A DNA stretch of 18,656 nt from an uncultured Bdellovibrionales bacterium. Its GTDB lineage: Bacteria > Bdellovibrionota_C > UBA2361 > JBGSMV01. This document shows positions 3,378 through 16,778 of the stretch, in pieces (positions within the stretch are counted from its first letter, which is position 1; each line of letters starts with the position of its first letter). Under the pieces are notes generated by a model. The model worked only from the letters and a program-made list of their open reading frames with translations, was not told the origin of the DNA and made no database searches. The position numbers and the translations under genes were made by a program. The stretch lies in assembly GCA_964631745.1 (NCBI GenBank), contig CAZVWV010000022.1:15640-34295 (forward strand). The letters run 5' to 3'.

Positions 3378-3388
3378 TGAGAAACAAG

Positions 3389-3958: not shown

Positions 3959-4573
3959 TTACATATAAGCAACGGATTCGCTATAGGAGGGTCTCTCCGC
4001 GAGCTCCTCCTCGGGAATCTCTGCTAAAGTTGCACCGGCAACCTCACGTTCCGGGGGCTGGGCAGATTGGCGAATGGCGCGCTGTATGGCAACGGCACTG
4101 CGAAGATTGAGCCCTTCGATGCGCGCAAAGCGTGTCTCAGATTCAGTCTCTGCCTGTCCCGGCGTGACGATATCGAGGGAATAGAGCCCCAGTATAAGAT
4201 GCTGAAAATCTCTAGCTAAACGCAGGGCGGTAATCTTATCTGTAGGAAAACTCCAGCGCTGCCTCAGCAGAACTCCCTTTGAAATTGAGAACGTATTGTG
4301 GTTCAGGTCGATTCTAAAGAAATGATGCTGCAAAGCCGCCCAAATAATAGCGCCGCTAAGCATAAGGAAGACAAAGCCAAGCAACACAAACTCTTCAAGC
4401 TCCAAGTTTCTAAAGAGATGCAGCTCACGCCCGAGAATCCCGTTTTCGACGCTTGTTAGACTGATTAGCGCTAGAATGGAGAATGCAAGCACGATCCATT
4501 TCAATGAACGTAATAGAATAAATCTTCTTGAGAGCCCAACCAAACGTCCGTTTCTGACTGCCATAATTCCCAT
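3959..4573 (-). CDS. Bacterial PH-domain (bPH_2, YdbS/YdbT-like) membrane protein
   Basis: Two predicted N-terminal TM helices, followed by a region resembling the bPH_2 fold (RQRWSFPTDKITALRLARDFQHLILGLYSLDIVTPG). Convergent with ydbL. Confidence 0.55.
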   Translation of the reverse strand: MGIMAVRNGRLVGLSRRFILLRSLKWIVLAFSILALISLTSVENGILGRELHLFRNLELEEFVLLGFVFLMLSGAIIWAALQHHFFRIDLNHNTFSISKGVLLRQRWSFPTDKITALRLARDFQHLILGLYSLDIVTPGQAETESETRFARIEGLNLRSAVAIQRAIRQSAQPPEREVAGATLAEIPEEELAERPSYSESVAYM

Positions 4574-4780
4574 ACAAATTACCTCACCACGGCGAATGGG
4601 ACGCTAAGGACACTTCGATATTCAAACTTTTCGGTTAGACCTGAGTTGGAATATGATGGTAATCAGGTAAGTGCCCACGCTATTGTTCCAGGCTTTAATT
4701 CAATATTTCTGGCTAAGCGAAGGTATACCGCTTTTCTGAATAGGACTCAGGAGGCTTGGATGGTCCCGTTTTGTCTTTTT

Positions 4781-4809
4781 TTGGCCTAACCTAGCGTTGG
4801 CTCTATAAT
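4781..4809 (+). promoter_or_regulatory. Near-consensus sigma70 promoter TTGGCC-N17-TATAAT directed toward the cassette array
   Basis: TTGGCC at 4781-4786, a 17-bp spacer, TATAAT at 4804-4809, and a T-rich tract immediately upstream (UP-like). Confidence 0.4.
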
Positions 4810-4864
4810 CAGGATGTTTATGAGCCAGGTAGCTATAATTGCCGTCGAATCAGCCATCCCCCAA

Positions 4865-4929
4865 TTGACCGATAAGTTCACTTATCGGTCAATATTAGAT
4901 GTTACTGCCGAAGTGAACTATCGGTCAAT
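4865..4929. promoter_or_regulatory. Operator-like repeats: a perfect 12-bp inverted repeat (TTGACCGATAAG-TTCA-CTTATCGGTCAA) plus a third half-site (AACTATCGGTCAAT)
   Basis: Palindrome at 4865-4892. A direct repeat of its right half lies at 4916-4929 (GTTCAC/GTGAAC, then TATCGGTCAAT). All lie 55-120 bp downstream of the promoter at 4781-4809. Confidence 0.35.
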
Positions 4930-4977
4930 TCAGGTATCTACTCCCTGCCGGAATCCCGATCACTCTCGCTATCTGGG

Positions 4978-5331
4978 TTAAAAATCATAGTCGTAAATTT
5001 GTCCAACGCTTCCGCGGCACGTGCCCTTCTTTCGGCCAGCCGCCTCTATACCTTCAGGATCAACTTTCCGCATATATTCCCAAACGACGAAGGGCGCAGA
5101 AGAAAGAACGCGAAAAATGAATGCGCCCATTTCGCGTATCTTGCGAATTGCCAAGGTAAAATTAAAGGATGGGATCCGTGCAAGGTATTTAAAACTGCCG
5201 TGCGACTTACTGATGCCGAACTGACCAGCGTTGTTCCCAGGATCGGCTTGCCTCTGAGCAATTCGAGTCGCTTCAAAAGGCGCCTTAATCAAGTTACCCT
5301 CCCCTACTTGAGAATCCACTGGTGCAAGCAC
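4978..5331 (-). CDS. Hypothetical ORF of uncertain coding status
   Basis: Longest ORF in the 4.6-5.5 kb gap. No family recognised. It overlaps plus-strand ORFs of similar length, so it may be non-coding remnant DNA. Confidence 0.15.
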   Translation of the reverse strand: MLAPVDSQVGEGNLIKAPFEATRIAQRQADPGNNAGQFGISKSHGSFKYLARIPSFNFTLAIRKIREMGAFIFRVLSSAPFVVWEYMRKVDPEGIEAAGRKKGTCRGSVGQIYDYDF

Positions 5332-5510
5332 CTCAAGCGGGCTTTTGGTTCCGGTCGGCCCACATTCCGCGACGTGAGTGTACCGATCTTTATTCCCCTT
5401 CCCAAATCGATTTGGATTGGGCTAGTACTTGTGGAGCCTTGGTCAAAACGCAGAAACCCATAGACTTTTTGCCAAACAACCCAAGCTTACAAATATGTTG
5501 AGATGGGCGG

Positions 5511-5609
5511 CATAACACCCGAATTCTCCCGTCAGCGGGGCGCGACCACTTTGGGTAATTTGGCTTGACTAAATGGCCCCGCTGCGGGAGATTCGGCAAC
5601 ACATTAGCT
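5511..5609 (+). repeat. attC-like site, family 1 copy A
   Basis: cATAACa ... CCGAaTTCTCCCGtCAGCGGGGC ... TTGACT ... GCCCCGCTGCGGGAGATTCGG ... cATTAGC. One of four ~95-bp copies (see 9575, 16385, 16779) that are about 80-90% identical. Imperfect dyad, with extra bases only in the 5' arm. Confidence 0.7.
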
Positions 5610-5629
5610 TGCTTGTATGTGATGGTATT

Positions 5630-6040
5630 ATGATGGCCCGAGACATTAGTAAAGTTTTTTGTATGACCGCAGCTCTTTCAAGCTTCGCGCTTGGAGTAAC
5701 CGGTTGTGATAACTTGAATCCTGGATCCGATCCTTCATTTTTGGGAAGAATAGGTACCGCTGACTTATATCTTAAGGAGATTGGCGGTAGGAGTTACTTA
5801 GTCGTAGACGACGATCCTGGCACTGCTTGCATAGAACATCACCCAAAATCAAAATTAGATAACATTGCCCACAGCTTTAGCAGTCAACTTGAGGGGAAGG
5901 CTGGCGACGTTGAGCTCTATACAGTTGAGGTCGATGGCACCAAATATCTTTTATCTCTAAACTACCTTACGAATCGCGGCCATGGATGTGATTTAATACT
6001 GATCCCAGAAGGGGCAAGTGGCGACACTCTCGCAAGATAA
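5630..6040 (+). CDS. Cassette-borne small lipoprotein, function unknown
   Basis: MMARDISKVFCMTAALSSFALGVTGC signal with lipobox. TAA stop at 6038-6040 is embedded in the GATAAC R'' box of the next attC. I take the ATG at 5630 because the track's ATG at 5573 lies inside attC-A. Confidence 0.5.
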   Translation: MMARDISKVFCMTAALSSFALGVTGCDNLNPGSDPSFLGRIGTADLYLKEIGGRSYLVVDDDPGTACIEHHPKSKLDNIAHSFSSQLEGKAGDVELYTVEVDGTKYLLSLNYLTNRGHGCDLILIPEGASGDTLAR

Positions 6041-6132
6041 CACCGGCCCGAAACTGACCGCGCCCCTTGAGTACTCGTGGCGCCATGATATTATATCTGG
6101 GGCGCGGCAGTTTTGGCCGCGAACCGTTATCC
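6035..6132 (+). repeat. attC-like site, family 4 copy a
   Basis: GATAACACCGGCCCGAAACTGACCGCGCCCC ... GGGGCGCGGCAGTTTTGGCCGCGAACCGTTATCC. About 85% identical to the copy at 9005-9101. Unpaired bases in the left arm. Confidence 0.65.
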
Positions 6133-6139
6133 ACTCATT

Positions 6140-6610
6140 ATGAACCAAACTAAAGCCGAGTATTACAAGAGCTTGCCGGCCAAGAGAATGGGCGCTGGCG
6201 TTCTTTTCTTTAATGATCAAAATGAACTCTTGCTCGTGCAACCAACCTACAAAGACACTTGGGAAATTCCAGGTGGCATTGTTGAACTAAGCGAATCACC
6301 GCGTGATGCAGTGCTCCGCGAAGTTCATGAGGAGCTAGGTTTAAAGATTGAACCTGAACTACTTAATTTTACATGCATTGAATATATGTCTGCGGGCAAA
6401 GAGATCTCGGAGTCCTTAATGTTTGTATTCTCGGGAGGGGTGCTTACTGAAAACATTATTAACCAGATTAACTTAGAATCTTCCGAACTCAAATCATTTA
6501 AGTTTGTTCCACCGAGTAGTATCACTGAATTTCTCGGACCAATTCTCGGGTCGAGAATCATAAAATGTCTTGAATCATCTAGTTGCTTTTACTCGGAAAA
6601 CAAATACTAG
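6140..6610 (+). CDS. NUDIX hydrolase
   Basis: Canonical Nudix box GGIVELSESPRDAVLREVHEELGL (Gx5Ex7REUxEExGU). I take the ATG at 6140 because the track's TTG at 6113 lies inside the attC. The TAG stop lies 5 nt before the next R''. Confidence 0.85.
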   Translation: MNQTKAEYYKSLPAKRMGAGVLFFNDQNELLLVQPTYKDTWEIPGGIVELSESPRDAVLREVHEELGLKIEPELLNFTCIEYMSAGKEISESLMFVFSGGVLTENIINQINLESSELKSFKFVPPSSITEFLGPILGSRIIKCLESSSCFYSENKY

Positions 6611-6613
6611 AGT

Positions 6614-6712
6614 GGATAACAAGCCGGTGCACTTGATGCGAAACTCTTGGCTTTTCCGGGTGTTTTGGGGCACTATTGGAGAGTTTCGCACAAGTGACCC
6701 TAAACTTTATCT
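6614..6712 (+). repeat. attC-like site, family 6
   Basis: GATAAC at 6615-6620. Arms GCACTTGaTGCGAAACTCTtGGC and GGAGAGTTTCGCACAAGTGA, with a ~26-nt loop. Variant R' is CTTTATC. Confidence 0.5.
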
Positions 6713-6721
6713 TCCTAACTT

Positions 6722-7276
6722 TTACTCACGCCCAAAACCGATCTTTCCCTTTCTCCCTCTCTGCATCGGTTCCTTCGGTTGAGCGTTAATTAACTCCCGA
6801 ATGCTATTGAACACCACTTTAAATTGGGCGTCATAACGCCGCTCTAGTTCGTCTAATCGTTTCGCGAACTCTTTGTTACTTGCTAGAATCTGCCGCATCC
6901 GGACAAACGCTCTGATGATCGCTATATTCACATGAATAGCTCTCTCACTATTCAAAACACTGGAAAGCATTGAAATTCCGTGCTCAGTGAACGCGTATGG
7001 CAGGTTTCGTCGGCCAGGCTTACCACTTGAGGTCACAATTTGTGACCGTAAAGCCGTGTATTCTTGGCTAGTTAGCTGAAACATGAAGTCCGCCGGGAAT
7101 CTTTCCACGTTTCGCTTTACAGCCTGTACCAGCGCCTTCGTTCTTACTTGGTAAAGTCTGGCTAGATCCTCGTCCAGCATTACCTTCTCACCTCTAATGA
7201 AGTAAATTGATTGCTCCAGCCGTTCAACAGGTATTACAGAACTGTTCTTTTTATTCATCGTTTCCCAAACTATCAT
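6722..7276 (-). CDS. ORF6N-domain (KilA-N-like / antirepressor-type DNA-binding) protein
   Basis: N-terminal IYFIRGEKVMLDEDLARLYQVRTKALVQAVKRNVERFPADFMFQLT is the ORF6N signature. The ORF is inverted within its cassette and sits next to the family-2 attC. Confidence 0.75.
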   Translation of the reverse strand: MIVWETMNKKNSSVIPVERLEQSIYFIRGEKVMLDEDLARLYQVRTKALVQAVKRNVERFPADFMFQLTSQEYTALRSQIVTSSGKPGRRNLPYAFTEHGISMLSSVLNSERAIHVNIAIIRAFVRMRQILASNKEFAKRLDELERRYDAQFKVVFNSIRELINAQPKEPMQRGRKGKIGFGRE

Positions 7277-7302
7277 GCCATTATCCGCTTAGACAACGCG
7301 GA

Positions 7303-7381
7303 AGATAACCATTGAATTCACGATATTTCGCGCTTTAGAATCAGTTTGGCGCGAAAATCGTGATTCAACAGAACGTTGGAC
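7303..7381 (+). repeat. attC-like site, family 2 copy a
   Basis: GATAACC ATTGAATTCACGATATTTCGCGC ... GGCGCGAAAATCGTGATTCAACA GAACGTTGGAC. The R' GTTGGAC is a perfect GTTRRRY. Confidence 0.65.
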
Positions 7382-7436
7382 TGAGCCGCGCAGTAGCGCG
7401 GAGGATCCTAAGCGAGAATTTGAATCGTAAGAGTAA

Positions 7437-7464
7437 GACCGGCACCGACCGGTCATTTTTTTTT
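7437..7464 (+). terminator. Rho-independent terminator at the 5' end of a cassette
   Basis: GACCGG-CACCGA-CCGGTC hairpin followed by a T9 run. It lies 60 nt after the cassette boundary within a conserved leader (7382-7465). A weaker copy lies at 14433-14515. Confidence 0.6.
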
Positions 7465-7645
7465 GCGAAAAGCGTGAGGATGTGTGCCGGTGGTTCAAGT
7501 CCCATCGCCGCCCCGACCGCCCGAACCTAGTGCCGAACCTAGTGTAGCTGAAAAGTAGAAAAGAATCTTGGCGAAAGTTCCATCCCTGATGGTGTAAAAG
7601 AGACCTGACTAAAGAAACTCATTTACAACCATCAGGGAGGAATTC

Positions 7646-8233
7646 ATGAACGATAAAAAAAGTACGCCACTTAGAGAGAAAATGAAAGCGGATTTAATGC
7701 TTCGGAATTATTCTAAGCCTTCTGAAGAGTTATATCTGTTTCATGTCAGGCGCTTTGCACAACACTATCACAAATCCCCAGGACATCTTGGACTAGACGA
7801 GATCCGGAGCTACCTGACGTACCTGCGCCAAGAAGCCAACGTATCGCAGTCATCGTATAAGCAAACGGTGGCAGCGCTCAAAGACGGCAACGTCTCTTTC
7901 TCCTACAAAGATTACAGAACTAACGAAAAGAAATTGATGACGCTGCCTGCTGTAGAGTTTATTCGGAGATTTCTGCTGCATGTGCTTCCAAACAAGTTCG
8001 TGAGGGTGCGCTACTACGGGTTCCTGACCAGGGCAAAGAAACTTGCCGCTCTGAGCACTATTAGAGAGGCGTTGGAGACCCATTCTCAAGCCCCGCCACC
8101 AAAACCTGCCACTACGCCCCATAGACACTGCTGCCCGGCCTGCAAGCTCGGGAAATTGGTCCACATTGGCCAAGTCCCACGCTGTTCGATTCCAGGCACT
8201 AGTCCACCAGCGCAACATACAGCCCTTTCTTAG
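7646..8233 (+). pseudogene. Degenerate chimeric ORF: tyrosine-recombinase (IntI/Xer-type) SAM-like N-terminal domain joined to the C-terminal segment of an IS91-family (Y2 HUH) transposase
   Basis: Residues 8-80 (LREKMKADLMLRNYSKPSEELYLFHVRRFAQHYH...VSQSSYKQTVAAL) fit the recombinase N-terminal SAM-like domain. Residues about 100-175 (EFIRRFLLHVLPNKFVRVRYYGFLTRAKK ... CCPACKLGKL) fit the Y2-transposase C-terminus with its terminal Zn motif. No catalytic domain sits between them. Confidence 0.45.
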
Positions 8234-8267
8234 CCAATCGCTCTTAGCTATACTAACTTCAATCGTT

Positions 8268-8394
8268 GGAGGCTGCGCGGCCCAGTCCAACGGGGTGTCG
8301 AGCCGCGATTCTCAGGCGAGAACGCTGCGGCAAGTTGGCACTCCTTGGCTGATAATCGCGGCCCAACACTAAACATTATCCCCTTTAGGCAGCC
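8268..8394 (+). repeat. attC-like site, family 3 copy 1; it has an extended outer palindrome
   Basis: GCGCGGCCCA GTCCAAC ... GAGCCGCGATTCTCAGGCGA ... GGCTGATAATCGCGGCCC AACACTAAACATTATCC. About 80% identical to 14966-15086. The 10 nt outside R'' are the reverse complement of the 10 nt that follow R' at the cassette start (7382-7391). Confidence 0.55.
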
Positions 8395-8663
8395 AGTTTT
8401 CTCTTGAGAACCTTAATCTCATTTTCAATCTGTTCAAGTCTCGAGGCAGCCGTCACTTTATCCGACATGCTTTCACTCAGAGTCCTGTTAATTAGCCGCT
8501 GATAAGGAATTCCACTCTCATCAGCCATAGCTCTTAGCTTTGCAAGAGTTTCGGCATTGATATTGATTGTAATTTTTATGCTCTTCTGGCGAGCCATCGC
8601 AGAACGTATTCGCTTGGTTTCAGCCCTATCGATTTTAAGATTTTTTAGGTTTGGTTTTTTCAT
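8385..8663 (-). CDS. brnA: BrnA antitoxin (CopG/RHH-type)
   Basis: MKKPNLKNLKIDRAETKRIRSAMARQKSIKITININAETLAKLRAMADESGIPYQRLIN. Starts at the internal Met of the track ORF and overlaps the end of brnT by about 29 nt. Confidence 0.7.
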   Translation of the reverse strand: MKKPNLKNLKIDRAETKRIRSAMARQKSIKITININAETLAKLRAMADESGIPYQRLINRTLSESMSDKVTAASRLEQIENEIKVLKRKLAA

Positions 8664-8922
8664 TGTATATTCTCCTAAACTCTCGCCATTCGGCCGACCC
8701 ATAAATTCGTACTTTTCCTTCTCGCCTTGTAAACCGAGTCGTAAGTATCTTCCCCGAACTCGATCTCCCCAACCAATAAAAACGCTCCTCATCCTGAGAA
8801 TGCTTATCATCTCTGATGGCAAATCCATCAGGATCGGAAAAAGACTCCGCGGCTTCGGAAAAACTCACCTTGTGCTTCCTAAGGTTTTCTTTAGCTTTGC
8901 CGGCGTCCCACTCGAAATCCAT
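8635..8922 (-). CDS. brnT: BrnT toxin (DUF497 ribonuclease family)
   Basis: MDFEWDAGKAKENLRKHKVSFSEAAESFSDP...DDKHSQDEERFYWLGRSSSGKILTTRFTRREGKVRIYGSAEW matches the BrnT pattern (FEWD..K...N..KHGVSF.EA, HS..EERF). The toxin lies upstream of the antitoxin, as in BrnTA. Confidence 0.8.
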   Translation of the reverse strand: MDFEWDAGKAKENLRKHKVSFSEAAESFSDPDGFAIRDDKHSQDEERFYWLGRSSSGKILTTRFTRREGKVRIYGSAEWREFRRIYNEKTKPKKS

Positions 8923-9004
8923 ATAAGCATGATTACCATACCTATGTGTATTTTACCATATAAACTGTAAGTTGGTGAAGATTTATTTTTTGGTTCCACG
9001 CAGG

Positions 9005-9101
9005 GGATAACACCGACCTTAAACTGACCGCGCCCATTGATTAGGGTTGCCAGTATGGTACCATTATGGGGCGCGGCAGTTTAGGCCGCAAAACGTTAGG
9101 C
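9005..9101 (+). repeat. attC-like site, family 4 copy b
   Basis: GATAACACCGACCTTAAACTGACCGCGCCC ... GGGGCGCGGCAGTTTAGGCCGCAAAACGTTAGGC. Perfect R' GTTAGGC. Extra T and A in the left arm. Confidence 0.7.
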
Positions 9102-9120
9102 AGCCTACGGAGAGAAACTT

Positions 9121-9580
9121 ATGCGAATGGTCCTGGACGAGAATTTCAAAATATCCATCGAGGGACGGAATGATTTCGATGGACGAATCCTATTTCTGAG
9201 CAAGAACTCTGGAATTGCGAGGATTGGCAACAAGGGCTGGGATTTTCGCGATGCAATTTTAGGCAGTGGTGAGGATTTTGCCATCGAGCTAATGGCGAAT
9301 GGGCAAGCAGCAGCTACCTTATCGTTTGAAAGAAATTCAGGCCATTCGATCGCGGTCCCTAGAAAGGGCGATAAAAATTGAGAATTTTCAATTGAACCTC
9401 GACCCAAACACTGAAGAGTGGATTCTTGAAAGTAAACAACACAAGCATGGATTCGGACAGCGAATTGGTTCTCGGATCGTCCTTAACATTAACGACGAGC
9501 ATTTAGTTCAGGAAATGGCGGAGGTAGTGGCGTTGAGTTTTATTGCTATTCAAGGCTGGGGCGGAATGAAGGCTGCCTAA
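9121..9580 (+). pseudogene. Unknown cassette gene apparently split by a +1 frameshift at an A5 run
   Basis: ORFs 9121..9381 and 9299..9580 are in frames 1 and 2. They overlap around GGGCGATAAAAATTGAG (about 9368-9375). Joined they give a protein of about 152 aa. The TAA stop at 9578-9580 is embedded in the CCTAAC R'' box. Confidence 0.45.
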
Positions 9581-9675
9581 CATCCGAGTGCTCCCGACAG
9601 CGGGGCCGCGGTCTGCTTTAGTAGTTTGTATTGACTTGAAGGCCCCGCTGCGGGAGATTCGGCATCACGTTGGAC
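9575..9675 (+). repeat. attC-like site, family 1 copy B
   Basis: GCCTAAC at 9575-9581 is a perfect RYYYAAC. CCGAGTgCTCCCGACAGCGGGGCCGCG ... TTGACTTGAAGGCCCCGCTGCGGGAGATTCGGCATCAC GTTGGAC. Perfect R' at 9669-9675. Confidence 0.8.
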
Positions 9676-9750
9676 TGCAAGTATTTTTGATTAGGAAGTC
9701 TGCCCATGATACACTTTTTATTATTAATTTAACATAATAGAGGTATTATT

Positions 9751-10134
9751 ATGAACTCACCACAAATGGAGTTTGCAGGAAATATCGGCGGATTACAAAA
9801 CTTTCTTAGCCAGTGTTCATCGGCAGCTTTGGCGATGGCAATACAACCAGAAATAACAAAAATTATGCAAAATCAATCCTTGGATTCCAATGCACCTTTA
9901 ACAGTGGATCTACTAAACACCTTGAGGCAGAGCTTATACAGTCGAAATGACGATCCAGATGCAAGACAAACAGATATTTTAATGATACTGGCCGATGCCT
10001 TGCGTGGAAAGGGCGTTTCGTCAGGGAATCCTATCGAAGATAGACTGCGTTTTGTAGAAATACTTCAAGATCAATTACAACGAAACGGCAGAGTCAATTT
10101 TCAGAGAGCACTCGCAGAGTCTATAGCAAGATAG
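9751..10134 (+). CDS. Hypothetical cassette protein (127 aa)
   Basis: ATG preceded by a GAGG-like Shine-Dalgarno within an AT-rich leader. No family recognised. Followed by a candidate attC at 10148-10235. Confidence 0.4.
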   Translation: MNSPQMEFAGNIGGLQNFLSQCSSAALAMAIQPEITKIMQNQSLDSNAPLTVDLLNTLRQSLYSRNDDPDARQTDILMILADALRGKGVSSGNPIEDRLRFVEILQDQLQRNGRVNFQRALAESIAR

Positions 10135-10147
10135 TGCAGGCTAACAA

Positions 10148-10235
10148 GTGGGCGCACTGGAGGCAAAATCCTGGGGCTTTCTTAGGAATTTTGTGACTGT
10201 TATGATGATTTTGCCCCAGTGGTTCTAAACGTTAA
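10148..10235 (+). repeat. Candidate attC-like site, family 9
   Basis: GGCTAAC ... GCGCACTGGaGGC / GCCCCAGTGGTTC imperfect dyad, with one extra A in the left arm. R' is AAACGTTAACC. Confidence 0.4.
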
Positions 10236-10256
10236 CCCCTTTTAGCAGTAATACCC
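10235..10256 (+). repeat. 22-bp direct copy of the tip of the Tn3-family IRR (ACCCCTTTTAGCAGTAATACCC)
   Basis: Identical to 12822-12843 and in the same orientation. It starts 5 nt after a cassette boundary and 13 nt before the tnpA ATG. Confidence 0.5.
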
Positions 10257-10268
10257 CTCCTTGACCAA

Positions 10269-12743
10269 TTGATGGAACCAAATGACGCGAGTTCGGCGAA
10301 GCTCACACGGTATCAGCTTACGCTCATGAAGAAATTCGCTCACTCCATTGCGCCATCTGCAATAAAGGAAAATGTCGAGCAGCTTGTAGCGCTGCGTGAA
10401 CTTTACCTTGAGATTCGAGCAGTATTAGAAGAGCTTGATCTTACCCGCGAAGGCATTCGTTACTTTGCGACCTACGTTTTAAAATCGCCTACTTGGAGGC
10501 TTTCTGCAAGAGAGGACCATGACCGATACTTGCACATGATAACTTTTGTTGCTCATCAGTACTATCAACTTCAAGATATCCTTGTCGATGTTTTGCTCAG
10601 CTCTGTAACGGCAATTAACAACGGCGCACGTCGTGAGCACAAAGATGGTTGCTACGAACAGCGGTCTCAAAAAAATAGCTCCCTTGCAAATGTGATTGAA
10701 ACAGTTGAGAAACTTCTCTCTGGCTATGCTGAGATTCACGATATCTTGCACAAAAAGGGACTACACTCGGATAAAAAAATAGAGCTTATCAAGGCTCTAC
10801 TTGATGAAAATGAAGCTGCTATCCGTAACGCCAGAAAGCATGTCATTAACCTCAAACAGGCATCTCAGCAGGTGGTTGAGAATGATTTCTACGCAATTCT
10901 GGAATCAAAGTCGGTCAAACTTCAAAATAGAGTCGCAGGGATTGTAAAAACGCTTGAGTTTAGATCTGACTGCTCTGATAAGCTGCTCTACAGCGCCATA
11001 TGTCACTATAGAGAGCACGCTACCCTCACTGAATCTGCACCATACGATTTCTTAAGTCCGGTTGAGCAGAATCTCTTGCACAGAGACGGTGGAAAGTTTC
11101 GAGTTCCGCTCTATAAAGTGCTGCTCTTTGGAAGAATCGCTGAAGCAATTCGGGCCGGGACCCTTAACTTAGACCACTCATACAAGTATCGCACTTTAGA
11201 AGAGTATCTAATCGCGCGGTGCGCTTGGGATGAGGGAAAAGATGTCCTCATAGAGCGCGCAAGCCTCCAAGTTGTTGAGAACTGTCCTAAAGTGCTTACC
11301 GATCTTCAAACCCGCCTAGCGCAATATTATCAGCTTACAAATCAGCGAATTTTAGATGGCGGCAATGAATTTGTTTCGGTCAAAAGTACCGGCGCTTATA
11401 CCGTGCAAACCCCGCCAGTAGCCGAGAAGATGGCTCCTGGCCTGCCTGAGTACTTTCCAGAGACTAAATTTATTTCTCTGCTTGAAATCCTTTCCACAAC
11501 CAATCAAGTAACAAATTTTCTAGCAGAATTTAAACGCTCAAAATTAAAGTATAATCGCGCACGACCAAGCGATCGGTCCTTTTTTGCCGGTTTACTCGGA
11601 TTTGGGTGCGGCATCGGTATAAAAAGAATCGCTCAAATCTCAAACCTCATCGACGAAGATGAGCTTGAAAGAACCGTAAACTGGCATTTTTCTTTAGATA
11701 ATGTTGAAGCTGCCAACGATAGAATTTTAGCCTTCATGGATAAGCTTGATCTCCCCTCGGTTTATCTCCAAGACCCAGAGTGGCGGCACACCTCAAGTGA
11801 CGGCCAAAAGGTAGAGGTGGCCGTGCCTTCGCTTAATGCCAATTACTCGTTTAAATATTTCGGCCAAGGTAAGGGCGTGAGCGTCTATAGCTTCATTGAT
11901 GAGAGACATTTTCTCTTTCACTCAACGGTAATTAGCTCAGCGGAACGGGAGGCCGCATATGTAATCGACGGCTTGATGCACAATGATGTTGTACAGAGCG
12001 ATATTCATTCAACTGATACTCACGGCTATACTGAAGTAATATTTGGCGCGACGCATCTTTTGGGATTCATGTTCGCCCCTCGAATCAAGAGTTTAGGGCG
12101 ACAACACCTCTATACCTTTCCTGGCAATACAAAAAAGCTGTACAAAGAAATGAAATACCCTATCCTGCCAGATGGCGTTATCAACATTCAATTAATCGCA
12201 GATAACTGGGATGAAATTCTGCGATTCGTGGCTACCATCAAACTAAAAGAAACCCCTGCTTCGCAGCTATTTAGACGACTTAACTCATACTCAAAATCGC
12301 ACCCTTTATGGGACGCTCTCAAAGAGTTTGGAAAAATTATAAAATCGATTTTCATCCTTCACTACATCGACGATCTCAATCTTCGCCAGGCAGTTGAGAA
12401 GCAGATGAACAAGATCGAAAGTGCTCAGAAGTTTTCAAACGCCGTGGCGTTCGGATCACAAGAATTTAGGCAGGCAGACCGAGAGGAGCAAAATATTGTC
12501 GCTGCTTGTCGCAGGCTTATTAAGAACGCCATCATCTGTTGGAACTACCTATACCTTTCGCAAAAAATTGTAGATGCGCCGAGCCCAGCGCAGAAAAATG
12601 AAATTATTGATGCCGTTCAAAACGGCTCAGTGGTCGCATGGCGGCACATTAATTTCTACGGGGAGTATGATTTCTCAGATGAAAAGCTCAGGGATTCTGT
12701 TGGAATTACTGCCCCTTCGGTTAGGAGTCTTAGAGTGGCTTGA
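10269..12743 (+). mobile_element. tnpA: Tn3-family transposase TnpA, N-terminally truncated relative to full-length (~1000 aa) TnpA
   Basis: 824 aa. Family motifs: RYLHMITFVAHQYYQLQDILVDVLL; SSDGQKVEV; HSTDTHGYTEVIFGATHLLGFMFAPRIKSLGRQHLYTF (DDE region). The first ~170 aa, the N-terminal DNA-binding region, are absent. No resolvase or res site nearby. Confidence 0.85.
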
Positions 12744-12805
12744 AATTCAAAAATGGGAGGGTCGTTTTTGAGTTAAGTTGCTGATCTGGCATAAGAATTC
12801 GGAAA

Positions 12806-12843
12806 TTCTGTGGCGGTTTTCACCCCTTTTAGCAGTAATACCC
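12806..12843 (-). mobile_element. Tn3-family 38-bp terminal inverted repeat (IRR)
   Basis: Read from the tip it is GGGTATTACTGCTAAAAGGGGTGAAAACCGCCACAGAA. It shares GGG at the tip, GCT at 11-13 and GAAAAC at 23-28 with the Tn3 IR (GGGGTCTGACGCTCAGTGGAACGAAAACTCACGTTAAG). It lies 63 bp past the tnpA stop. Confidence 0.55.
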
Positions 12844-12968
12844 AACGTTCGCTAGCGCAGCTTCTTTGCTTTTCAGTACGCTCGAAAGCATCGCTACTCC
12901 CTGTTCCGAGAAGGAGTACGGAGGAGTCCTACGGCCGCCCCAAGATCTTGATATGCCAAATTGGCATT

Positions 12969-13172
12969 TCAAGTCGGCAAGTTCTTGATTTGACAGCCGA
13001 AACATAAAATCCCCGGGAATCGATCTTTGTTTCGCCTAACCGCACGATTTAAATGCCCCGTTTCGACACAATAGAGTTCAGCCAAATCGGAATCTAGCAT
13101 CACGCGCTGCCCTCTGATCAGATAAATCAGGCTAGAAATCTCTTTTTTGATAACTGCGCTGGTTTTTGGCAT
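12969..13172 (-). pseudogene. Truncated ORF6N-domain gene; paralog of 6722..7276
   Basis: [38 protein letters not shown] aligns to ORF6N copy 1 up to 'RFP', then diverges and terminates at 67 aa. Its family-2 attC is retained upstream. Confidence 0.6.
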
Positions 13173-13233
13173 ATATATGTGAGTTTACCTTTAGTCAATG
13201 GAGGCGCCAAGGTCATATTGCAACAACGGTGCT

Positions 13234-13330
13234 GGCTAACAATTGAATTCACGAGATTTCGCGCCACTACCTTTAGTAGTTGCTTTGACATCCAGTTGGC
13301 GCGAAACTCCTGATTCAACATCACATTATG
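13234..13330 (+). repeat. attC-like site, family 2 copy b
   Basis: GGCTAAC AATTGAATTCACGAGATTTCGCGCC ... GGCGCGAAACTCCTGATTCAACA TCACATTATG. Variant R' is CATTATG. Confidence 0.6.
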
Positions 13331-13362
13331 CGCCCGCTCCACTGCTCATAAATTTAGCTGTT

Positions 13363-13725
13363 ATGCTTAATTCCACCTCACGAAAAAATCTAGGTAAAAT
13401 ATTCTTATGTTTGGTCATTATTTGGGTGGCAAAAGAAGGATATGAGTGGACTCGTTGTTTCTGCAGTACGGCAACGGATACGCGGGTGCTGATTGCGCAG
13501 TGCACCGAAGTTAAAAGAGAACTTCAACTTTATAAAGACAAACATGGTGCTTGGCCTAGGTCCTTGTTCGATGCGGGTATTTGGCCCATTAGCTATTTTG
13601 GAATTTGGCGTTATCGCCCGTCCTCCCTAGATTTTGATGGCCCAATGTTGGAAATTGGTTGCAGCGGCTGGCATATAGTAGGAACCTCGCCTGATGAAAA
13701 TGGTGATTGCGGAGCTTGGGATTGA
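13363..13725 (+). CDS. Hypothetical small protein with one N-terminal TM helix (weak pseudopilin-like motif)
   Basis: IFLCLVIIWVA hydrophobic helix; AQCTEVKRELQLYKDKHGAWPRSL loosely resembles a GspG/pilin segment. I take the ATG at 13363 because the track's start lies inside the attC. No Shine-Dalgarno. Confidence 0.35.
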   Translation: MLNSTSRKNLGKIFLCLVIIWVAKEGYEWTRCFCSTATDTRVLIAQCTEVKRELQLYKDKHGAWPRSLFDAGIWPISYFGIWRYRPSSLDFDGPMLEIGCSGWHIVGTSPDENGDCGAWD

Positions 13726-13732
13726 GTGCTCG

Positions 13733-13832
13733 CATAACCACCGCGTTGAAGGGAAACGCGACTCGCGAGCGGATTTCGAAATTTTAAGCGTTTGAGTGGG
13801 GCGCGTCCCCATCAGGCGGCAACCCATTATGC
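13733..13832 (+). repeat. attC-like site, family 8
   Basis: GCATAACC ... TGAAGGGAAACGCGaCtCgCG / GAGTGGGGCGCGTCCCCATCA imperfect dyad. Variant R' CATTATGCGC, the same 10-mer as at 13323-13332. Confidence 0.45.
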
Positions 13833-13833
13833 G

Positions 13834-14043
13834 CTAGCGCTTCCTGAGCTTGTTAGGATCTCGGCGGCAGTGGAAAACTGATACGACCACGATATGTTCG
13901 GTTTCTATCGAGAAAAATACCCCGAAGGGAAACTTTTTTAGCAAACATCGGCGAAGATCGTCGAAAGCAACTGAATATAACATAGGAGTTCTTGCAATCT
14001 TTGCCAAAGCAACATCAAGCGACCGAATAAATTCCGATCCCAA
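13834..14043 (-). CDS. ParE/RelE-family toxin, short (possibly N-terminally truncated)
   Basis: ...DDLRRCLLKKFPFGVFFSIETEHIVVVSVFHCRRDPNK matches the ParE C-terminal core. The ORF begins at TTG with an in-frame stop just upstream. It leaves an 80-bp gap to the antitoxin and lacks the usual ~25-aa N-terminal helix. Confidence 0.6.
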   Translation of the reverse strand: MGSEFIRSLDVALAKIARTPMLYSVAFDDLRRCLLKKFPFGVFFSIETEHIVVVSVFHCRRDPNKLRKR

Positions 14044-14123
14044 ACCATGTGCTTGCGTTTCCTACCAACGCGCAGCGGCTTCTAGTTCAGCAGAAGCCTT
14101 TTGGGTAAATCTAATTTCCACAA

Positions 14124-14345
14124 TTAAAGGCTGATTTTCTGCTTGAGATCCGACCATGAAATGCCGGTATCGGGGTCTCTCCTATAATGCGCAAGTCTAG
14201 CGCGCAATTCCACTTTTTGGTCTTCGCTGAGCTCAAGTGAATCTGGGAGCTGCTCTATGCTGTCCCAAATATCCTGAACAAGTTGAATTCGCTCTGAAAC
14301 GCTTAAGCCAAGAATCTCTTCTAGAAGTTCCTTTTCTTTGGGCAT
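14124..14345 (-). CDS. Antitoxin, 'putative addiction module component' (TIGR02574-like), partner of the ParE-like toxin
   Basis: LSVSERIQLVQDIWDSIEQLPDSLELSEDQKVELRARLAHYRRDPDTGISWSDLKQKI fits the LSxEERLxLIxxLWDSL...AxLDRRLAxYxxDP pattern of this antitoxin family. Located upstream of the toxin. Confidence 0.65.
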   Translation of the reverse strand: MPKEKELLEEILGLSVSERIQLVQDIWDSIEQLPDSLELSEDQKVELRARLAHYRRDPDTGISWSDLKQKISL

Positions 14346-14364
14346 CTGAGTATTGTATAGCTAA

Positions 14365-14432
14365 GCGCATAACAACGCAATCAATAGACATTTTGCTTCG
14401 CAAAATGCTATTGATTGCGCGATACGTTGGAC
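14365..14432 (+). repeat. Short attC-like site (~68 bp), family 7
   Basis: GCATAAC AACGCAATCAATAGaCATTTTGC ttcg GCAAAATGCTATTGATTGCGCGAT ACGTTGGAC. Perfect R' GTTGGAC. Extra base in the left arm. Confidence 0.7.
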
Positions 14433-14515
14433 TGAGCCGCGCTGGCGCGCGGAGGGGTGTAATTGAAACATTTATGGTTGAATTGGAATGATTCGTAAGA
14501 GACGGTCATTTTTTG
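14433..14515 (+). repeat. Conserved cassette-start leader (second copy) with CCGCGC-N4-GCGCGG hairpin and a degenerate terminator
   Basis: TGAGCCGCGCTGGCGCGCGGAGG...GAATTGGAATGATTCGTAAGAGACGGTCATTTTTTG, against 7382-7465 TGAGCCGCGCAGTAGCGCGGAGG...GAATTTGAATCGTAAGAGTAAGACCGGCACCGACCGGTCATTTTTTTTT. Confidence 0.6.
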
Positions 14516-14965
14516 TATACGAGATTAGGTGAAACGCCACTTCATGGCGCTGAAGGCGTCTTGCCTGACTTTTAATTGCGAATAGCGAGAAGCCTACTAA
14601 TTTCACTTGATATCTTTTGAAGAGCTGGCAGCATTGCTTCCCAAAAAGAGAAGCGGGCCTGTCGCGACTGCTTACTTACGTGCAGTCAGGAATGGAGATT
14701 CCTTTTTTACCGCCAGGGATGGCGGCGCCGCTTTAGACATAAACTGAGAGCGCGAATTGTGCTCAGACTCGGTGGGTAGGCCGAAGGCTTTTTGAAAGAA
14801 AAGCTATATTTCTTGGGGTGGGTTGTGCCTAATTGCAAAACTGAGAGATTTTTTATTACGTTAAATCAAATAGTTATTACTCTCCACATAAAAAACGCTG
14901 ACCAATCCCCATAGGCATAATCAGGCGTTGATTAACTATCTGGTTCCTTCAATAATCAAACCATT

Positions 14966-15086
14966 GTAGGCAGCGCGGCACAGTCCAACCGGGTGTCGAG
15001 CCGCGCTTCTCAGGCGAAGTTGCGGCACTGACTTCTCCCGTTTTGGCTGAGAACCGCGGCCCAACACTAAACATTAGGCAGACAGA
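14966..15086 (+). repeat. attC-like site, family 3 copy 2
   Basis: GCGCGGCACA GTCCAAC CGGGTGTCGAGCCGCGCTTCTCAGGCGA ... GGCTGAGAACCGCGGCCC AACACTAAACATTAGGCAG. Confidence 0.55.
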
Positions 15087-15091
15087 GCATT

Positions 15092-15883
15092 ATGCGTTGC
15101 GATTTTCCTATCCTTGAATACGATTCGGACCAGACAGCCCGTATCGAACCCACTGCTGTAGTGCCGGATGGCACGCTGCCTGAGATATGTATCATCTCGT
15201 TTTTCGCCGATGCTATTGAAAGGTTCGTCTCCAACGCCAACGCGACTGTGGCCTGTCGTTTTGACACGATGATAAGCTCGCATCCCGTCTATGAATTCTC
15301 CTACAAGGAGCGGCGGTTGGCCCTACTGCCAGCCGGGCTCGGTGGACCCCTTTCTGTTGGTCTTCTCGAGCACGCTATTGCTATGGGCTCGCGGTATTTT
15401 GTGGTGTGTGGCGCAGCGGGTGTTCTCAACAAAGAGATTGCAGCGGGACACCTGATTTTGCCAACAGCGGCGATACGGGATGAAGGAACGTCGTACCACT
15501 ACCTCCCGCCAGCTCGCGAAGTTGTGCCAAGTGCCGCAGCAGTAGCGGCTATTGGGAAAGTACTTGAAGATGCTAATATCCCGGTCGTTCGCGGAAAAAC
15601 ATGGACCACGGATGCATACTTTCGGGAAACGCGACGTAAGATTGAGTTGCGCCAGTCCGAGGACTGTATTTGTGTCGAAATGGAGGCGGCTGCCCTGTTT
15701 TCCGTCGCGGTGTTTCGCGGGGTTGATCTCGGCTATATCCTTTACGGAGGAGATTCCGTTGCCGGTGTTTGGGACCCACGAGAAGAGTTTGACCGTGCTG
15801 TGGTTCGCGAGAGGCTGATTCGCCTTTCCTGCGAAGCATGCTGTTTACTAGCCGATCAAACAAACGTTCTGAGGCATAAGTGA
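15092..15883 (+). CDS. Nucleoside phosphorylase-I family protein (PNP/UDP/MTAN-type phosphorylase domain)
   Basis: VEMEAAALFSVA matches the family's VEMEAAA[IL] active-site motif. The upstream segment LALLPAGLGGPLSVGLLEHAIAMGSRYFVVCGAAGVL...ILPTAAIRDEGTSYHY aligns with the DeoD/MTAN substrate-binding core. The ATG lies inside CATTATGCG. Confidence 0.7.
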   Translation: MRCDFPILEYDSDQTARIEPTAVVPDGTLPEICIISFFADAIERFVSNANATVACRFDTMISSHPVYEFSYKERRLALLPAGLGGPLSVGLLEHAIAMGSRYFVVCGAAGVLNKEIAAGHLILPTAAIRDEGTSYHYLPPAREVVPSAAAVAAIGKVLEDANIPVVRGKTWTTDAYFRETRRKIELRQSEDCICVEMEAAALFSVAVFRGVDLGYILYGGDSVAGVWDPREEFDRAVVRERLIRLSCEACCLLADQTNVLRHK

Positions 15884-15888
15884 GGGCT

Positions 15889-15983
15889 GCCTAACAATTG
15901 GAGCGAGCGGAGGAAAGGCCGCGAATGAAATTGATGATTTGTAGATTTGAAGTGGCCTTTCCCCGCTCCTCCTCGCCATTATC
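15889..15983 (+). repeat. attC-like site, family 5
   Basis: GCCTAAC (perfect RYYYAAC) AATTGGAGCGAGCGGaGGAAAGGCC ... GGCCTTTCCCCGCTCCTCCTCGC CATTATC. Confidence 0.55.
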
Positions 15984-16012
15984 CCGCCCTTTCGTTTGCA
16001 ACTTGTAATTTA

Positions 16013-16390
16013 ATGAATCAGGCCTTAACCCCCTATAGAGATGTCTTTCTGCGGTTGTTGAATGCTCTCCTGTTTCTGAGCTTAGTGGGTTTTCATGTCA
16101 TGCCAAAGTTATCGCTTATTATTATCGGCAATCAGCAACCTTCCGTTTTTCACATCGTCGCATTCGTAGTTTCAATTACGTCGGGATGTATTGCAGCGAA
16201 GTGGATAATAAAGCGGTTCTCCTTTGTTGAGCATTTAATTGTTTCATTTTGCCTTCTCCCACTTACAATTTGTGTGGCGGTAAGTTTACGGGAGGGTTTA
16301 ATATGGATTCTTATATTAGCTCTTTTCTCGCTTTTTAGTTATCTTCCTTACCGAAGAATCCAAAAAACAAGACCACCAAGCGCGGGATAA
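16013..16390 (+). CDS. Small integral membrane protein (about 4 TM helices), unknown function
   Basis: 125 aa with four hydrophobic segments. The TAA stop at 16388-16390 is embedded in the GATAAC R'' of attC-C. I take the ATG at 16013 because the track's start lies inside the preceding attC. Confidence 0.45.
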   Translation: MNQALTPYRDVFLRLLNALLFLSLVGFHVMPKLSLIIIGNQQPSVFHIVAFVVSITSGCIAAKWIIKRFSFVEHLIVSFCLLPLTICVAVSLREGLIWILILALFSLFSYLPYRRIQKTRPPSAG

Positions 16391-16485
16391 CCACCGAGTA
16401 CTCCCGATAGCGAGGCCGCGTTCTGCTTTGGTAATTTGAGTTGACTTGGAGGCCCCGCTGCGGGAGACTCGGCAAAACGTTAACC
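16385..16485 (+). repeat. attC-like site, family 1 copy C
   Basis: GATAACCA CCGAGTaCTCCCGAtAGCGaGGCCGCG ... TTGACTTGGAGGCCCCGCTGCGGGAGACTCGGCAAAAC GTTAACC. Confidence 0.75.
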
Positions 16486-16507
16486 CTCATTTAAAAATTC
16501 ATAGCAG

Positions 16508-16777
16508 ATGGGTATTGCAACCACTCTAATTATCTACGTCGCGCTCTTTCTCGTCATACGCCAGTCAGTTTTTATTATTGGCGAGAATCAGCGCGGAGTA
16601 ATTGTCCGGCTAGGGCGTTTCGAAAGAATTCATTATCCCGGGTTGCTTATTGTGGTTCCTTTCATGGACCGGGTTCACAAGATAGACTTGCCTGCACAAG
16701 TACCTGGTTGGGAGAAACTTTCTAAGGAGCAGCTTGATGCTAAGGTTCAGGAAATTGCTTTGAGCAAGATAGAATGA
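16508..16777 (+). CDS. SPFH/band-7 domain N-terminal fragment (89 aa)
   Basis: TM helix, then IIGENQRGVIVRLGRFERIHYPGLLIVVPFMDRVHKIDL, the start of the SPFH (stomatin/HflK/C) fold. Far shorter than functional SPFH proteins. The TGA stop lies 2 nt before the R'' of attC-D. Confidence 0.55.
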   Translation: MGIATTLIIYVALFLVIRQSVFIIGENQRGVIVRLGRFERIHYPGLLIVVPFMDRVHKIDLPAQVPGWEKLSKEQLDAKVQEIALSKIE

Positions 16778-16778
16778 G

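What the first reader, a model, noticed from the sequence alone, without database searches (positions are those of the whole stretch)
4574..5510. The array's proximal boundary has a near-consensus promoter and an operator-like repeat cluster but no intI
The 937 bp between the bPH gene and the first attC, about the size of an intI gene, contain no ORF resembling a tyrosine recombinase in any frame. The region does contain TTGGCC-N17-TATAAT (4781-4809) pointing into the array. It is followed by a perfect 12-bp-arm palindrome TTGACCGATAAG/CTTATCGGTCAA (4865-4892) and a third half-site (4916-4929). This looks like a Pc-like cassette promoter under repressor control, or the remains of an attI region whose integrase was lost (CALIN).
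Basis: partly seen in the sequence, partly recalled or inferred. Interest (0 to 1): 0.6.

Follow-up and report, generated by a model that had tools for sequence, protein, structure and literature searches.

The report
Chromosome dif site beside integron array
The "operator-like" palindrome next to this integrase-less gene-cassette array is most likely the chromosome's own dif site, where a Xer recombinase separates joined sister chromosomes at the replication terminus. It is not a repressor-controlled cassette promoter and not a leftover integron attachment site.

Summary
The interpretation does not hold.

The palindrome (4865-4892) has the dif layout: two 11-bp inverted arms around a 6-bp centre, with inner ATAA/TTAT.
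- The same arms recur once per contig or genome in about 60 unrelated contexts, mostly Bdellovibrionota-like MAGs.
- None of those loci has attC sites.
- The 6-bp centre varies by lineage.
- GC skew switches from + to - at the site.
- The FtsK-orienting motif GGGNAGGG points toward it 61:12 across the loci, and 3 of 3 in the window.
- In a relative whose bPH protein is 60% identical, only the palindrome survives in the intergenic DNA (32 of 34 nt). The promoter and the third half-site do not.

The promoter match is within chance expectation. The third half-site is a decayed partial copy of an arm plus the centre.

The array has 15 attC sites (5511-16880) and qualifies as a CALIN; it happens to start 618 bp from dif.

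The site is unusual because both arms are of the XerC type and the conserved XerD arm is missing. That suggests a single recombinase. No protein binding or recombination was tested.

The parts
4865..4892 (.). dif-like core site of 28 bp: left arm TTGACCGATAA (4865-4875), centre GTTCAC (4876-4881), right arm TTATCGGTCAA (4882-4892). The symmetry extends one base further on each side (4864-4893).
   Evidence: Read directly from the sequence. The same arms occur once per locus in 25 metagenome loci and 27-39 species genomes. It is conserved 32/34 nt in relative L096 while the flanks are not alignable. GC skew and GGGNAGGG converge on it.
4913..4929 (+). Degenerate partial copy of the site, GTGAACTATCGGTCAAT. 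It equals the reverse complement of 4864-4881 (arm plus centre) minus one T. The expected partner arm (4901-4912, GTTACTGCCGAA) matches only 4 of 12 positions.
   Evidence: It is absent from relative L096. Extra half-sites are not enriched in the other loci: 43 found versus 33 expected.
4781..4809 (+). Sigma-70-like match TTGGCC-N17-TATAAT. It is probably fortuitous, and its function is untested.
   Evidence: Chance expectation. Not conserved in L096.
4930..5510 (.). Spacer between the site and the first attC. It holds only an orphan ORF (4978-5331, -) and two GGGNAGGG motifs on the - strand (5297-5304, 5396-5403) that point back toward the site.
3959..4573 (-). bPH_2-domain gene, the chromosomal neighbour of the site. 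It is also the neighbour in relative L096/L097.
5511..5610 (+). First attC of the array. Its crossover triplet reads ATT instead of GTT.
5511..16880 (+). Cassette array of 15 attC sites, all on the + strand, interrupted by a Tn3-family transposase gene (10269-12743). No integron integrase is present, so it is a CALIN.

Best explanation
The palindrome at 4865-4892 is the chromosome dimer resolution site (dif) of this bacterium, at the replication terminus.

Inferred mechanism:
- A Xer-type tyrosine recombinase binds each 11-12-bp arm.
- FtsK, guided by GGGNAGGG-like polar motifs that converge on the site, brings the two sister copies together at the septum.
- Strand exchange across the 6-bp centre (GTTCAC) resolves chromosome dimers.
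- Both arms are identical and of the XerC-arm type (..CCGATAA), and the usual XerD arm (TTATGTnAAnT) is absent. The site is therefore probably served by one recombinase acting as a homodimer on each site, or by two with the same specificity.

Other features of the region:
- The nearby partial copy (4913-4929) is a decayed duplicate with no demonstrated role.
- The promoter-like hexamers are probably chance.
- The 580-bp spacer appears to be native terminus DNA.
- The integrase-less cassette array (CALIN, 5511-16880) simply starts 618 bp to the right of dif. Terminus regions commonly accumulate foreign DNA.

Shown here: the architecture, deep conservation, single-copy occurrence, unrelated contexts, and the convergence of skew and KOPS-like motifs. 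Inferred, not shown: protein binding, recombination and FtsK dependence.
For: 1. Architecture. The site has 11+6+11 bp, inner ATAA/TTAT and 37% G+C against about 47% for the window, and it is intergenic. These are the defining dif features listed by Carnoy & Roten (PMC2731167).
2. Arm identity. The arm TTGACCGATAA equals the left arm of the predicted Propionibacterium acnes dif. CCGATAA occurs in 87 predicted dif sites in the supplement of Kono et al. (PMC3025954).
3. Distribution. There are 25 metagenome loci with the exact arms, one site each. Of 69 species genomes matching the core pattern, each has one site, and 27-39 have matching outer flanks. These are mostly MAGs labelled Bdellovibrionota, Bdellovibrionales, Oligoflexia or 'delta proteobacterium', plus Dadabacteria and a few Cyanobacteriota.
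4. Context. The neighbouring genes are unrelated between lineages: cyclophilin/glycosyltransferase, a T4CP-like cluster, IleS and others.
5. Centre. It is asymmetric and lineage-specific (GTAACC, GTAAAG, GTAACG and others) while the arms are invariant.
6. GC skew. It is higher to the left than to the right of the site in 29/34 loci, against 11/22 in the look-alike control class. In the window it goes from +0.035 to -0.070, and cumulative skew peaks at 4.0-4.5 kb.
7. KOPS-like motifs. GGGNAGGG points toward the site 61:12, against 57% expected from base composition (p=1.4e-6). The controls give 17:9, not significant. Collapsed to independent genomic contexts the count is 11 versus 1. In the window all 3 motifs converge on the site.
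8. Relative. L096/L097 (bPH 60% identical) keeps the site 160 nt upstream of bPH at 32/34 nt, while the rest of the intergenic DNA is not alignable.
Against: - No Xer gene, binding or recombination could be examined, and only 18.7 kb of this genome is available. Single-copy status and terminus position are therefore inferred for this genome from other genomes and from local skew.
- The skew result weakens when collapsed to independent contexts (10/13, p=0.09).
- The loci are phylogenetically clustered.
- The conserved XerD arm, a hallmark of proteobacterial dif, is absent.
- The predicted dif of cultured Bdellovibrio bacteriovorus HD100 is different (TCTTCTGATAAGTTATATTATGTAACGG).
- A few pattern matches are other things, such as Bradyrhizobiaceae hairpins and terminator-like sites.
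- The same palindrome also sits in a tailed-phage contig upstream of terL. This shows the motif is not exclusively chromosomal.
Confidence: 0.82

Rival explanations
1. Operator of a repressor that controls a Pc-like promoter reading into the cassette array.
For: A 10/12 sigma-70 match lies 55 nt upstream and points toward the palindrome and the array. Perfect palindromes are typical operators. Each half-site contains TTGACC, which resembles a -35 element.
Against: The promoter is within chance expectation and is not conserved in the relative, whereas the palindrome is. The palindrome would lie at about +48 to +77, not over the promoter. The same site occurs once per genome next to unrelated genes and without attC arrays. 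A local operator does not explain the convergence of skew and KOPS-like motifs.
Confidence: 0.04
2. Remains of an attI site, meaning IntI-binding repeats left after loss of intI.
For: The position is right for attI, to the left of an array whose attC sites all read R''->R' on the + strand. IntI proteins are Xer relatives, and attI sites carry inverted plus direct binding repeats. An ATTAGAT box follows the right arm at 4894.
Against: None of 68 other loci carrying the palindrome has an attC. No intI remnant is present in any frame. R-box-like heptamers occur at chance frequency: 3 found versus about 1.8 expected. The site lies 618 bp from the first attC, and the DNA between carries terminus-oriented GGGNAGGG motifs.
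Confidence: 0.03
3. The site is dif, but the adjacent DNA, possibly including the cassette array, entered as an element that integrated by Xer recombination (IMEX-like). On this reading the degenerate copy at 4901-4929 is a junction scar.
For: The third site keeps one arm plus the centre while its other arm has diverged. This is the pattern described for difGGI and for IMEX attachment sites (PMC5357621). DNA beyond dif differs completely between the window and relative L096. Several Bdellovibrionota loci have 1-6 kb of variable DNA between the site and conserved neighbours. A phage contig carries the same site.
Against: The two sites are only 19-26 bp apart, and the centre of the second reads in inverted orientation. 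No second site exists at the far end of the array or anywhere else in the window. The spacer carries native-looking KOPS polarity. Extra half-sites are not enriched near the site in other genomes.
Confidence: 0.08
4. Structural hairpin only: a REP-like repeat or a bidirectional transcription terminator.
For: A 14-bp perfect stem is possible. About 30 of the 69 genome matches to the core pattern are A-run/T-run terminator-like hairpins in unrelated phyla.
Against: There is one copy per locus and per genome, not many. There is no T-run and no terminator call. The arms are conserved in sequence, not merely in pairing, and no compensatory changes are seen. The terminator-like class shows no skew or KOPS convergence.
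Confidence: 0.03

Closest known systems
XerC/XerD-dif of Proteobacteria (E. coli dif GGTGCGCATAA-TGTATA-TTATGTTAAAT)
   Same: It shares the 11+6+11 layout, inner ATAA/TTAT, low G+C, intergenic position, lack of a fixed gene context, single copy, location at the GC-skew switch, and convergence of GGGNAGGG motifs. The recombinase gene is not linked to the site: a motif scan found a tyrosine-recombinase-like ORF in only 1 of 66 loci, 10 kb from the site.
   Different: Both arms are identical and XerC-like. The highly conserved XerD arm is missing. The arms are perfectly symmetric over 12-14 nt.
Single-recombinase Xer systems (XerH/difH, XerS/difSL, archaeal XerA/dif)
   Same: More symmetric sites served by one recombinase. 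Archaeal dif also has 11+6+11 bp (PMC5357621).
   Different: difSL has an 11-bp centre and is linked to xerS, and difH has different arm sequences. Here there is no adjacent recombinase gene, and KOPS-like polarity suggests FtsK dependence, unlike XerA. The recombinase family is unknown.
Predicted actinobacterial dif (for example P. acnes TTGACCGATAA-GAGACA-TTATGTCATTT)
   Same: The left arm is identical at 11 of 11 positions.
   Different: The actinobacterial right arm is a normal XerD arm. Here the right arm is an inverted copy of the left.
CALIN (cluster of attC sites lacking an integron integrase)
   Same: 15 attC sites in one orientation with covarying stems and no intI within the window.
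   Different: The array is not part of the palindrome's function. Its adjacency to dif (618 bp) was not seen at any other locus examined.
IMEX attachment sites and pdif modules
   Same: The degenerate second site has one good arm plus the centre.
   Different: No element lies between the two sites, and the orientation is inverted rather than direct.

Membership tests
dif (Xer chromosome dimer resolution site) | Two ~11-bp inverted arms separated by a 6-8-bp central region, with inner ATAA/TTAT | tested here: met
   TTGACCGATAA-GTTCAC-TTATCGGTCAA at 4865-4892. The same layout is present in all related loci.
dif (Xer chromosome dimer resolution site) | Arms resemble known Xer-binding arms | tested here: met
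   The left arm is identical to the predicted P. acnes dif arm. CCGATAA occurs in 87 predicted dif sites.
dif (Xer chromosome dimer resolution site) | Conserved XerD arm (TTATGTnAAnT), as in XerCD-type dif | tested here: not met
   The right arm is TTATCGGTCAA, an inverted copy of the left. TTATCGG occurs in only 2 sites of Kono's table. It therefore fails as a classical XerCD-type dif but remains compatible with a single-recombinase dif.
dif (Xer chromosome dimer resolution site) | One copy per chromosome | tested here: inconclusive
   There is one match per genome in 69 species genomes and one per locus in 25 metagenome loci. These used a strict pattern, and only 18.7 kb of this genome is available.
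dif (Xer chromosome dimer resolution site) | Located at the replication terminus (GC-skew switch from + to -) | tested here: met
   29/34 loci against 11/22 controls. The window goes from +0.035 to -0.070. The result is weaker when collapsed to contexts: 10/13.
dif (Xer chromosome dimer resolution site) | FtsK-orienting polar sequences converge on the site | tested here: met
   GGGNAGGG gives 61 toward and 12 away, p=1.4e-6, and the controls are not significant. By genomic context the count is 11 versus 1. In the window it is 3 of 3.
dif (Xer chromosome dimer resolution site) | Intergenic, no fixed genetic context, G+C below that of the genome | tested here: met
   Neighbours are unrelated across lineages. 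The site is 37% G+C against about 47% for the window.
dif (Xer chromosome dimer resolution site) | Bound and recombined by cognate Xer recombinase(s), with FtsK activation | not testable with these tools
Integron attI / Pc promoter region | Adjacent, divergently transcribed intI (or a recognisable remnant) | tested here: not met
   No Pfam hit in six frames of 4400-5700. No integrase among the window's ORFs. The only tyrosine-recombinase-like piece is a 70-aa N-terminal domain inside an IS91 chimera at 7646-8233.
Integron attI / Pc promoter region | Site associated with attC arrays wherever it occurs | tested here: not met
   0 attC hits in 68 other loci carrying the palindrome.
CALIN | Two or more attC sites in one orientation with no integron integrase nearby | tested here: met
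   15 attC on the + strand, 5511-16880. Five of them were not used to build the model. Stems covary: 16 of 18 pairs. No intI in the 5.5 kb to the left or the 1.8 kb to the right.
Repressor operator | Overlaps or abuts a conserved promoter of a specific regulated gene | tested here: not met
   The promoter is at chance level and not conserved. Neighbouring genes differ between lineages.
REP / repetitive extragenic palindrome | Many dispersed copies per genome | tested here: not met
   Single copy per locus and per genome.

The most novel reading that the evidence does not exclude
The site defines an undescribed, perfectly symmetric dif class with two XerC-type arms and no XerD arm. It would be used by a single FtsK-guided Xer recombinase across uncultivated Bdellovibrionota-like lineages, Dadabacteria and some Cyanobacteria, a phylum where dif prediction had failed. 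In this genome the site would also have served as the entry point through which an integrase-less cassette array was captured by Xer recombination, leaving the degenerate copy at 4901-4929 as a scar. That would link integron cassettes to the ancestral Xer machinery.
Probability: 0.08. Interest if true: 0.75.

Novelty: new variant of a known kind. Interest (0 to 1): 0.4.

Why it matters
It replaces an attractive but wrong regulatory story with a housekeeping explanation. It also shows that a CALIN can abut the terminus recombination site.

The site itself is of modest wider interest.
- A fully symmetric dif that lacks the otherwise near-universal XerD arm is conserved across poorly studied lineages. 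It gives a concrete sequence for locating replication termini in their MAGs.
- It predicts a one-recombinase, FtsK-guided Xer system that could be tested directly.
- The same arms in a few cyanobacterial genomes bear on the failure to predict dif in that phylum (PMC3025954).

Tried and rejected
- Orthologous loci through the bPH protein in species genomes: nothing found.
- Exact-protein look-ups to extend the contig: only a 1.6-kb Logan contig identical to the window was returned. The 34-kb NCBI contig that the tools report was not retrievable.
- Homologues of the right-flank dipeptidase, sought to find an 'empty' locus: only the protein itself at E<=1e-50. I set that threshold too strictly and spent a search on it.
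- Six-frame Pfam scan, Rfam at gathering and at E<=1, and tRNA scan of the region: nothing.
- Orphan ORF 4978-5418 (-): no family found.
- Second dif-like site at the far end of the array or elsewhere in the window: none.
- Enrichment of extra half-sites near the site in other genomes: none, 43 found versus 33 expected.
- Gene-orientation convergence at the site: present, but equally so in the terminator-like control class, so it was discarded as evidence.
- Recombinase gene linked to the site: a tyrosine-recombinase motif scan flagged only one ORF in 66 loci, 10 kb away.
- attC arrays beside the site in other loci: none. A perfect hairpin with TAAC/GTTAC ends in L096 scores only 4 bits with the attC model.
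- Literature search for the arm sequence: only unrelated primer hits.

Full report
**1. The observation**

- TTGGCC-N17-TATAAT lies at 4781-4809 on the + strand.
- The palindrome TTGACCGATAAG/CTTATCGGTCAA lies at 4865-4892. It extends to perfect 14-nt arms separated by TC (4864-4893).
- A third exact TATCGGTCAAT lies at 4919-4929. The window's only three exact copies of this 11-mer fall within 66 bp.

No frame of 4400-5700 gives any Pfam hit, even at E<=10. Rfam and tRNA scans are empty. The longest ORF, 4978-5418 on the - strand, is an orphan among 1.84 billion representative proteins.

A covariance model built from ten attC sites of the window has 16 of 18 covarying stem pairs. It recovers 15 attC sites, all on the + strand, from 5511-5610 to 16780-16880. 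Five of these were not used in training. It finds none to the left of 5511. The array boundary and the absence of intI are therefore as described.

The promoter is not statistically notable. It is the only match of 10/12 or better in the window, where 2.9 are expected. Such a match arises in 13% of resampled 937-bp regions.

**2. What the palindrome is**

The useful way to read it is 11+6+11: TTGACCGATAA, GTTCAC, TTATCGGTCAA.

A metagenome scan for the arms with a 4-12-nt gap returned 25 loci. Almost all have the same spacing, and each has one site. The flanking DNA and genes are unrelated between groups. Examples are cyclophilin/glycosyltransferase, a T4CP-like gene cluster, and phage terminase.

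A scan of one genome per species with the inner 18 specified bases returned 69 genomes, each with one site.
- About 30 are A-run/T-run terminator-like hairpins in assorted phyla. I used these as a control class.
- 27 have the full TTGACC...GGTCAA arms, and 12 more have a one-base variant.
- These 39 are mostly MAGs labelled Bdellovibrionota, Bdellovibrionales, Oligoflexia or 'delta proteobacterium'. Two are Dadabacteria and a few are Cyanobacteriota.

The arms are invariant. The 6-bp centre is asymmetric and lineage-specific: GTAACC 13, GTAAAG 11, GTAACG 8, and others.

This is the pattern of a tyrosine-recombinase core site, specifically dif. Carnoy & Roten list the defining features as two 11-nt inverted arms around a hexanucleotide, conserved inner ATAA/TTAT, intergenic position, no fixed genetic context, low G+C, and location at the GC-skew maximum (PMC2731167). 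In the supplement of Kono et al., the predicted dif of Propionibacterium acnes is TTGACCGATAA-GAGACA-TTATGTCATTT, so its left arm is identical to ours. CCGATAA occurs in 87 predicted dif sites, whereas TTATCGG occurs in only 2 (PMC3025954).

**3. Tests of the dif reading**

GC skew:
- Over up to 4 kb on each side, skew is higher to the left than to the right in 29 of 34 loci of the true class. Eighteen are + then -, and one is the reverse.
- The control class gives 11 of 22.
- The window goes from +0.035 to -0.070, and its cumulative skew peaks at 4.0-4.5 kb.
- Collapsing loci that share flanking genes into 13 contexts leaves 10 positive (p=0.09). On its own this is supportive but not decisive.

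FtsK-orienting motif:
- I pre-specified the E. coli KOPS consensus GGGNAGGG. It points toward the palindrome 61 times and away 12 times. This is 84%, against 57% expected from the G/C ratio (p=1.4e-6).
- Control G-rich motifs show little bias, and the control class gives 17:9, which is not significant.
- By context the count is 11 versus 1 (sign test p=0.006).
- In the window all three GGGNAGGG motifs converge on the site: 3132-3139 (+), 5297-5304 (-) and 5396-5403 (-).
- The last two lie in the spacer between the site and the first attC. This suggests the spacer is native terminus DNA rather than a cassette.

Synteny and selection:
- The only detectable relative of the bPH protein (P0002, 60% identity) sits on two short ENA contigs. 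There the palindrome AATTGACCGATAAGAGAACTTATCGGTCAATT lies 160 nt upstream of bPH.
- Between the two genomes the coding region is 69% identical at the DNA level and the palindrome matches at 32/34 nt. The rest of the intergenic DNA is not alignable, including the promoter and the third half-site.

Linkage:
- A scan for conserved tyrosine-recombinase motifs in ORFs of at least 150 aa flagged a candidate in only one of 66 loci, 10 kb from the site. This resembles XerCD/dif and differs from XerS/difSL.
- No attC is found in 68 other loci carrying the site. The palindrome therefore has nothing to do with integrons as such.

**4. The other elements**

The third site, read with its left neighbours (4913-4929, GTGAACTATCGGTCAAT), equals the reverse complement of arm plus centre (4864-4881) minus one T. 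Its would-be partner arm matches only 4 of 12 positions.

One good arm plus the centre with a diverged second arm is what IMEX attachment sites and difGGI look like (PMC5357621). Against that reading:
- the copy is only 19-26 bp from the main site;
- it is in inverted orientation;
- it is absent from the relative;
- it has no counterpart at the far end of the array.

Extra half-sites are not enriched near the site in other genomes. I treat it as a decayed local duplicate, with a small chance of being an integration scar.

The promoter is most simply chance.

**5. How it most likely works**

The steps below are inferred, not shown.
- A Xer-family recombinase binds both arms.
- FtsK, translocating along converging GGGNAGGG-like motifs, aligns the sister sites at the septum and activates strand exchange across the centre.

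Both arms are the same XerC-type sequence and the near-universal XerD arm is missing. The simplest model is therefore a single recombinase, or two with the same specificity.

**6. Comparison and novelty**

Functionally and architecturally this is dif. It fails one defining feature of the classical XerCD-type site, the XerD arm. It also differs in sequence and linkage from difH, difSL and archaeal dif. I therefore file it as a new variant of a known kind rather than as a member of the XerCD-dif class.

Full-text searches for the arm sequence found only unrelated primer hits. Kono et al. failed to predict dif in Cyanobacteria and Planctomycetes.

The array is an ordinary CALIN. Its position 618 bp from dif was not seen in any other locus examined and is best regarded as coincidence within a plastic terminus region.

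**7. Verdict**

- The promoter/operator and attI readings are not supported. The 'no intI / CALIN' part stands.
- Best explanation: chromosomal dif site, confidence about 0.8.
- Interest is moderate (0.4). It is a clean reinterpretation plus an unusual, testable dif variant, with no experimental evidence and no access to the rest of this genome.

Noticed in passing
window 5603, 8375, 13325, 15073: In 4 of the 10 best attC sites the crossover triplet reads ATT (ACATTA) instead of the canonical GTT (ACGTTA or CCGTTA in the other six). The stems remain intact. This could reflect decay of an integrase-less array, a CpG-type transition hot spot, or a tolerated variant.
   Followed up: partly
window 7646-8233 (+): A 195-aa chimeric ORF lies inside the array. 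Residues 11-79 match the N-terminal SAM-like domain of tyrosine recombinases. The best hits are integron integrase and XerA models, but far below their cut-offs (32 bits versus 265). Residues 73-167 match the C-terminus of IS91-family transposase (84 bits versus a cut-off of 125). It looks like a deleted IS91-family element, not the missing intI.
   Followed up: partly
window 10239-13234: A Tn3-family transposase gene (10269-12743, 562 bits) sits between attC 10140-10238 and attC 13235-13332. A 25-nt repeat (TTAACCCCTTTTAGCAGTAATACCC) occurs at 10232-10256 and 12819-12843 in direct, not inverted, orientation.
   Followed up: no
L020 9889-9918, L021, L024, L098 665-692: Tailed-phage contigs carry the same palindrome (centre CAATAC) about 137 nt upstream of the large terminase gene (phrog_38). 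A portal-sized ORF follows. This may be a phage exploiting the host Xer site, or a prophage junction.
   Followed up: partly
L096 34-114 and 120-300: In the relative, a near-perfect 81-nt hairpin with TAAC/GTTAC ends and a 3-nt bulge lies about 300 nt beyond dif (z = -11). It is attC-like in outline but scores only 4 bits with the attC model. It is followed by a fragment resembling the IS91 zinc-binding N-terminus (EYLNCGLLCRGAARVCGYD).
   Followed up: partly
L008, L011, L031-L035, L039, L042, L053, L057, L060, L065, L080, L083, L093: In 12-15 Bdellovibrionota-like genomes the site lies between two conserved gene sets. One side has a cluster comprising a TraG-D_C/T4CP-like 700-aa protein, a 690-aa protein and a 160-aa protein. 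The other side has an 840-aa dehydrogenase-like gene. Between the site and the cluster there is 0-6 kb of variable DNA, possibly islands inserted next to dif.
   Followed up: partly
window 2028-3742 and 1452-1904: A ydbH-like gene (C-terminal part only), a 64-aa ORF and a DUF1318 (ydbL-like) gene form an operon-like run. A ferritin/Dps-like gene lies on the opposite strand upstream. This is native chromosomal context of proteobacterial type.
   Followed up: no
L038, L044, L090: Three Cyanobacteriota genomes carry the same core with AT-rich flanks, and two of them share flanking genes. Kono et al. 2011 could not predict dif in this phylum, so these may be candidate cyanobacterial dif sites.
   Followed up: no
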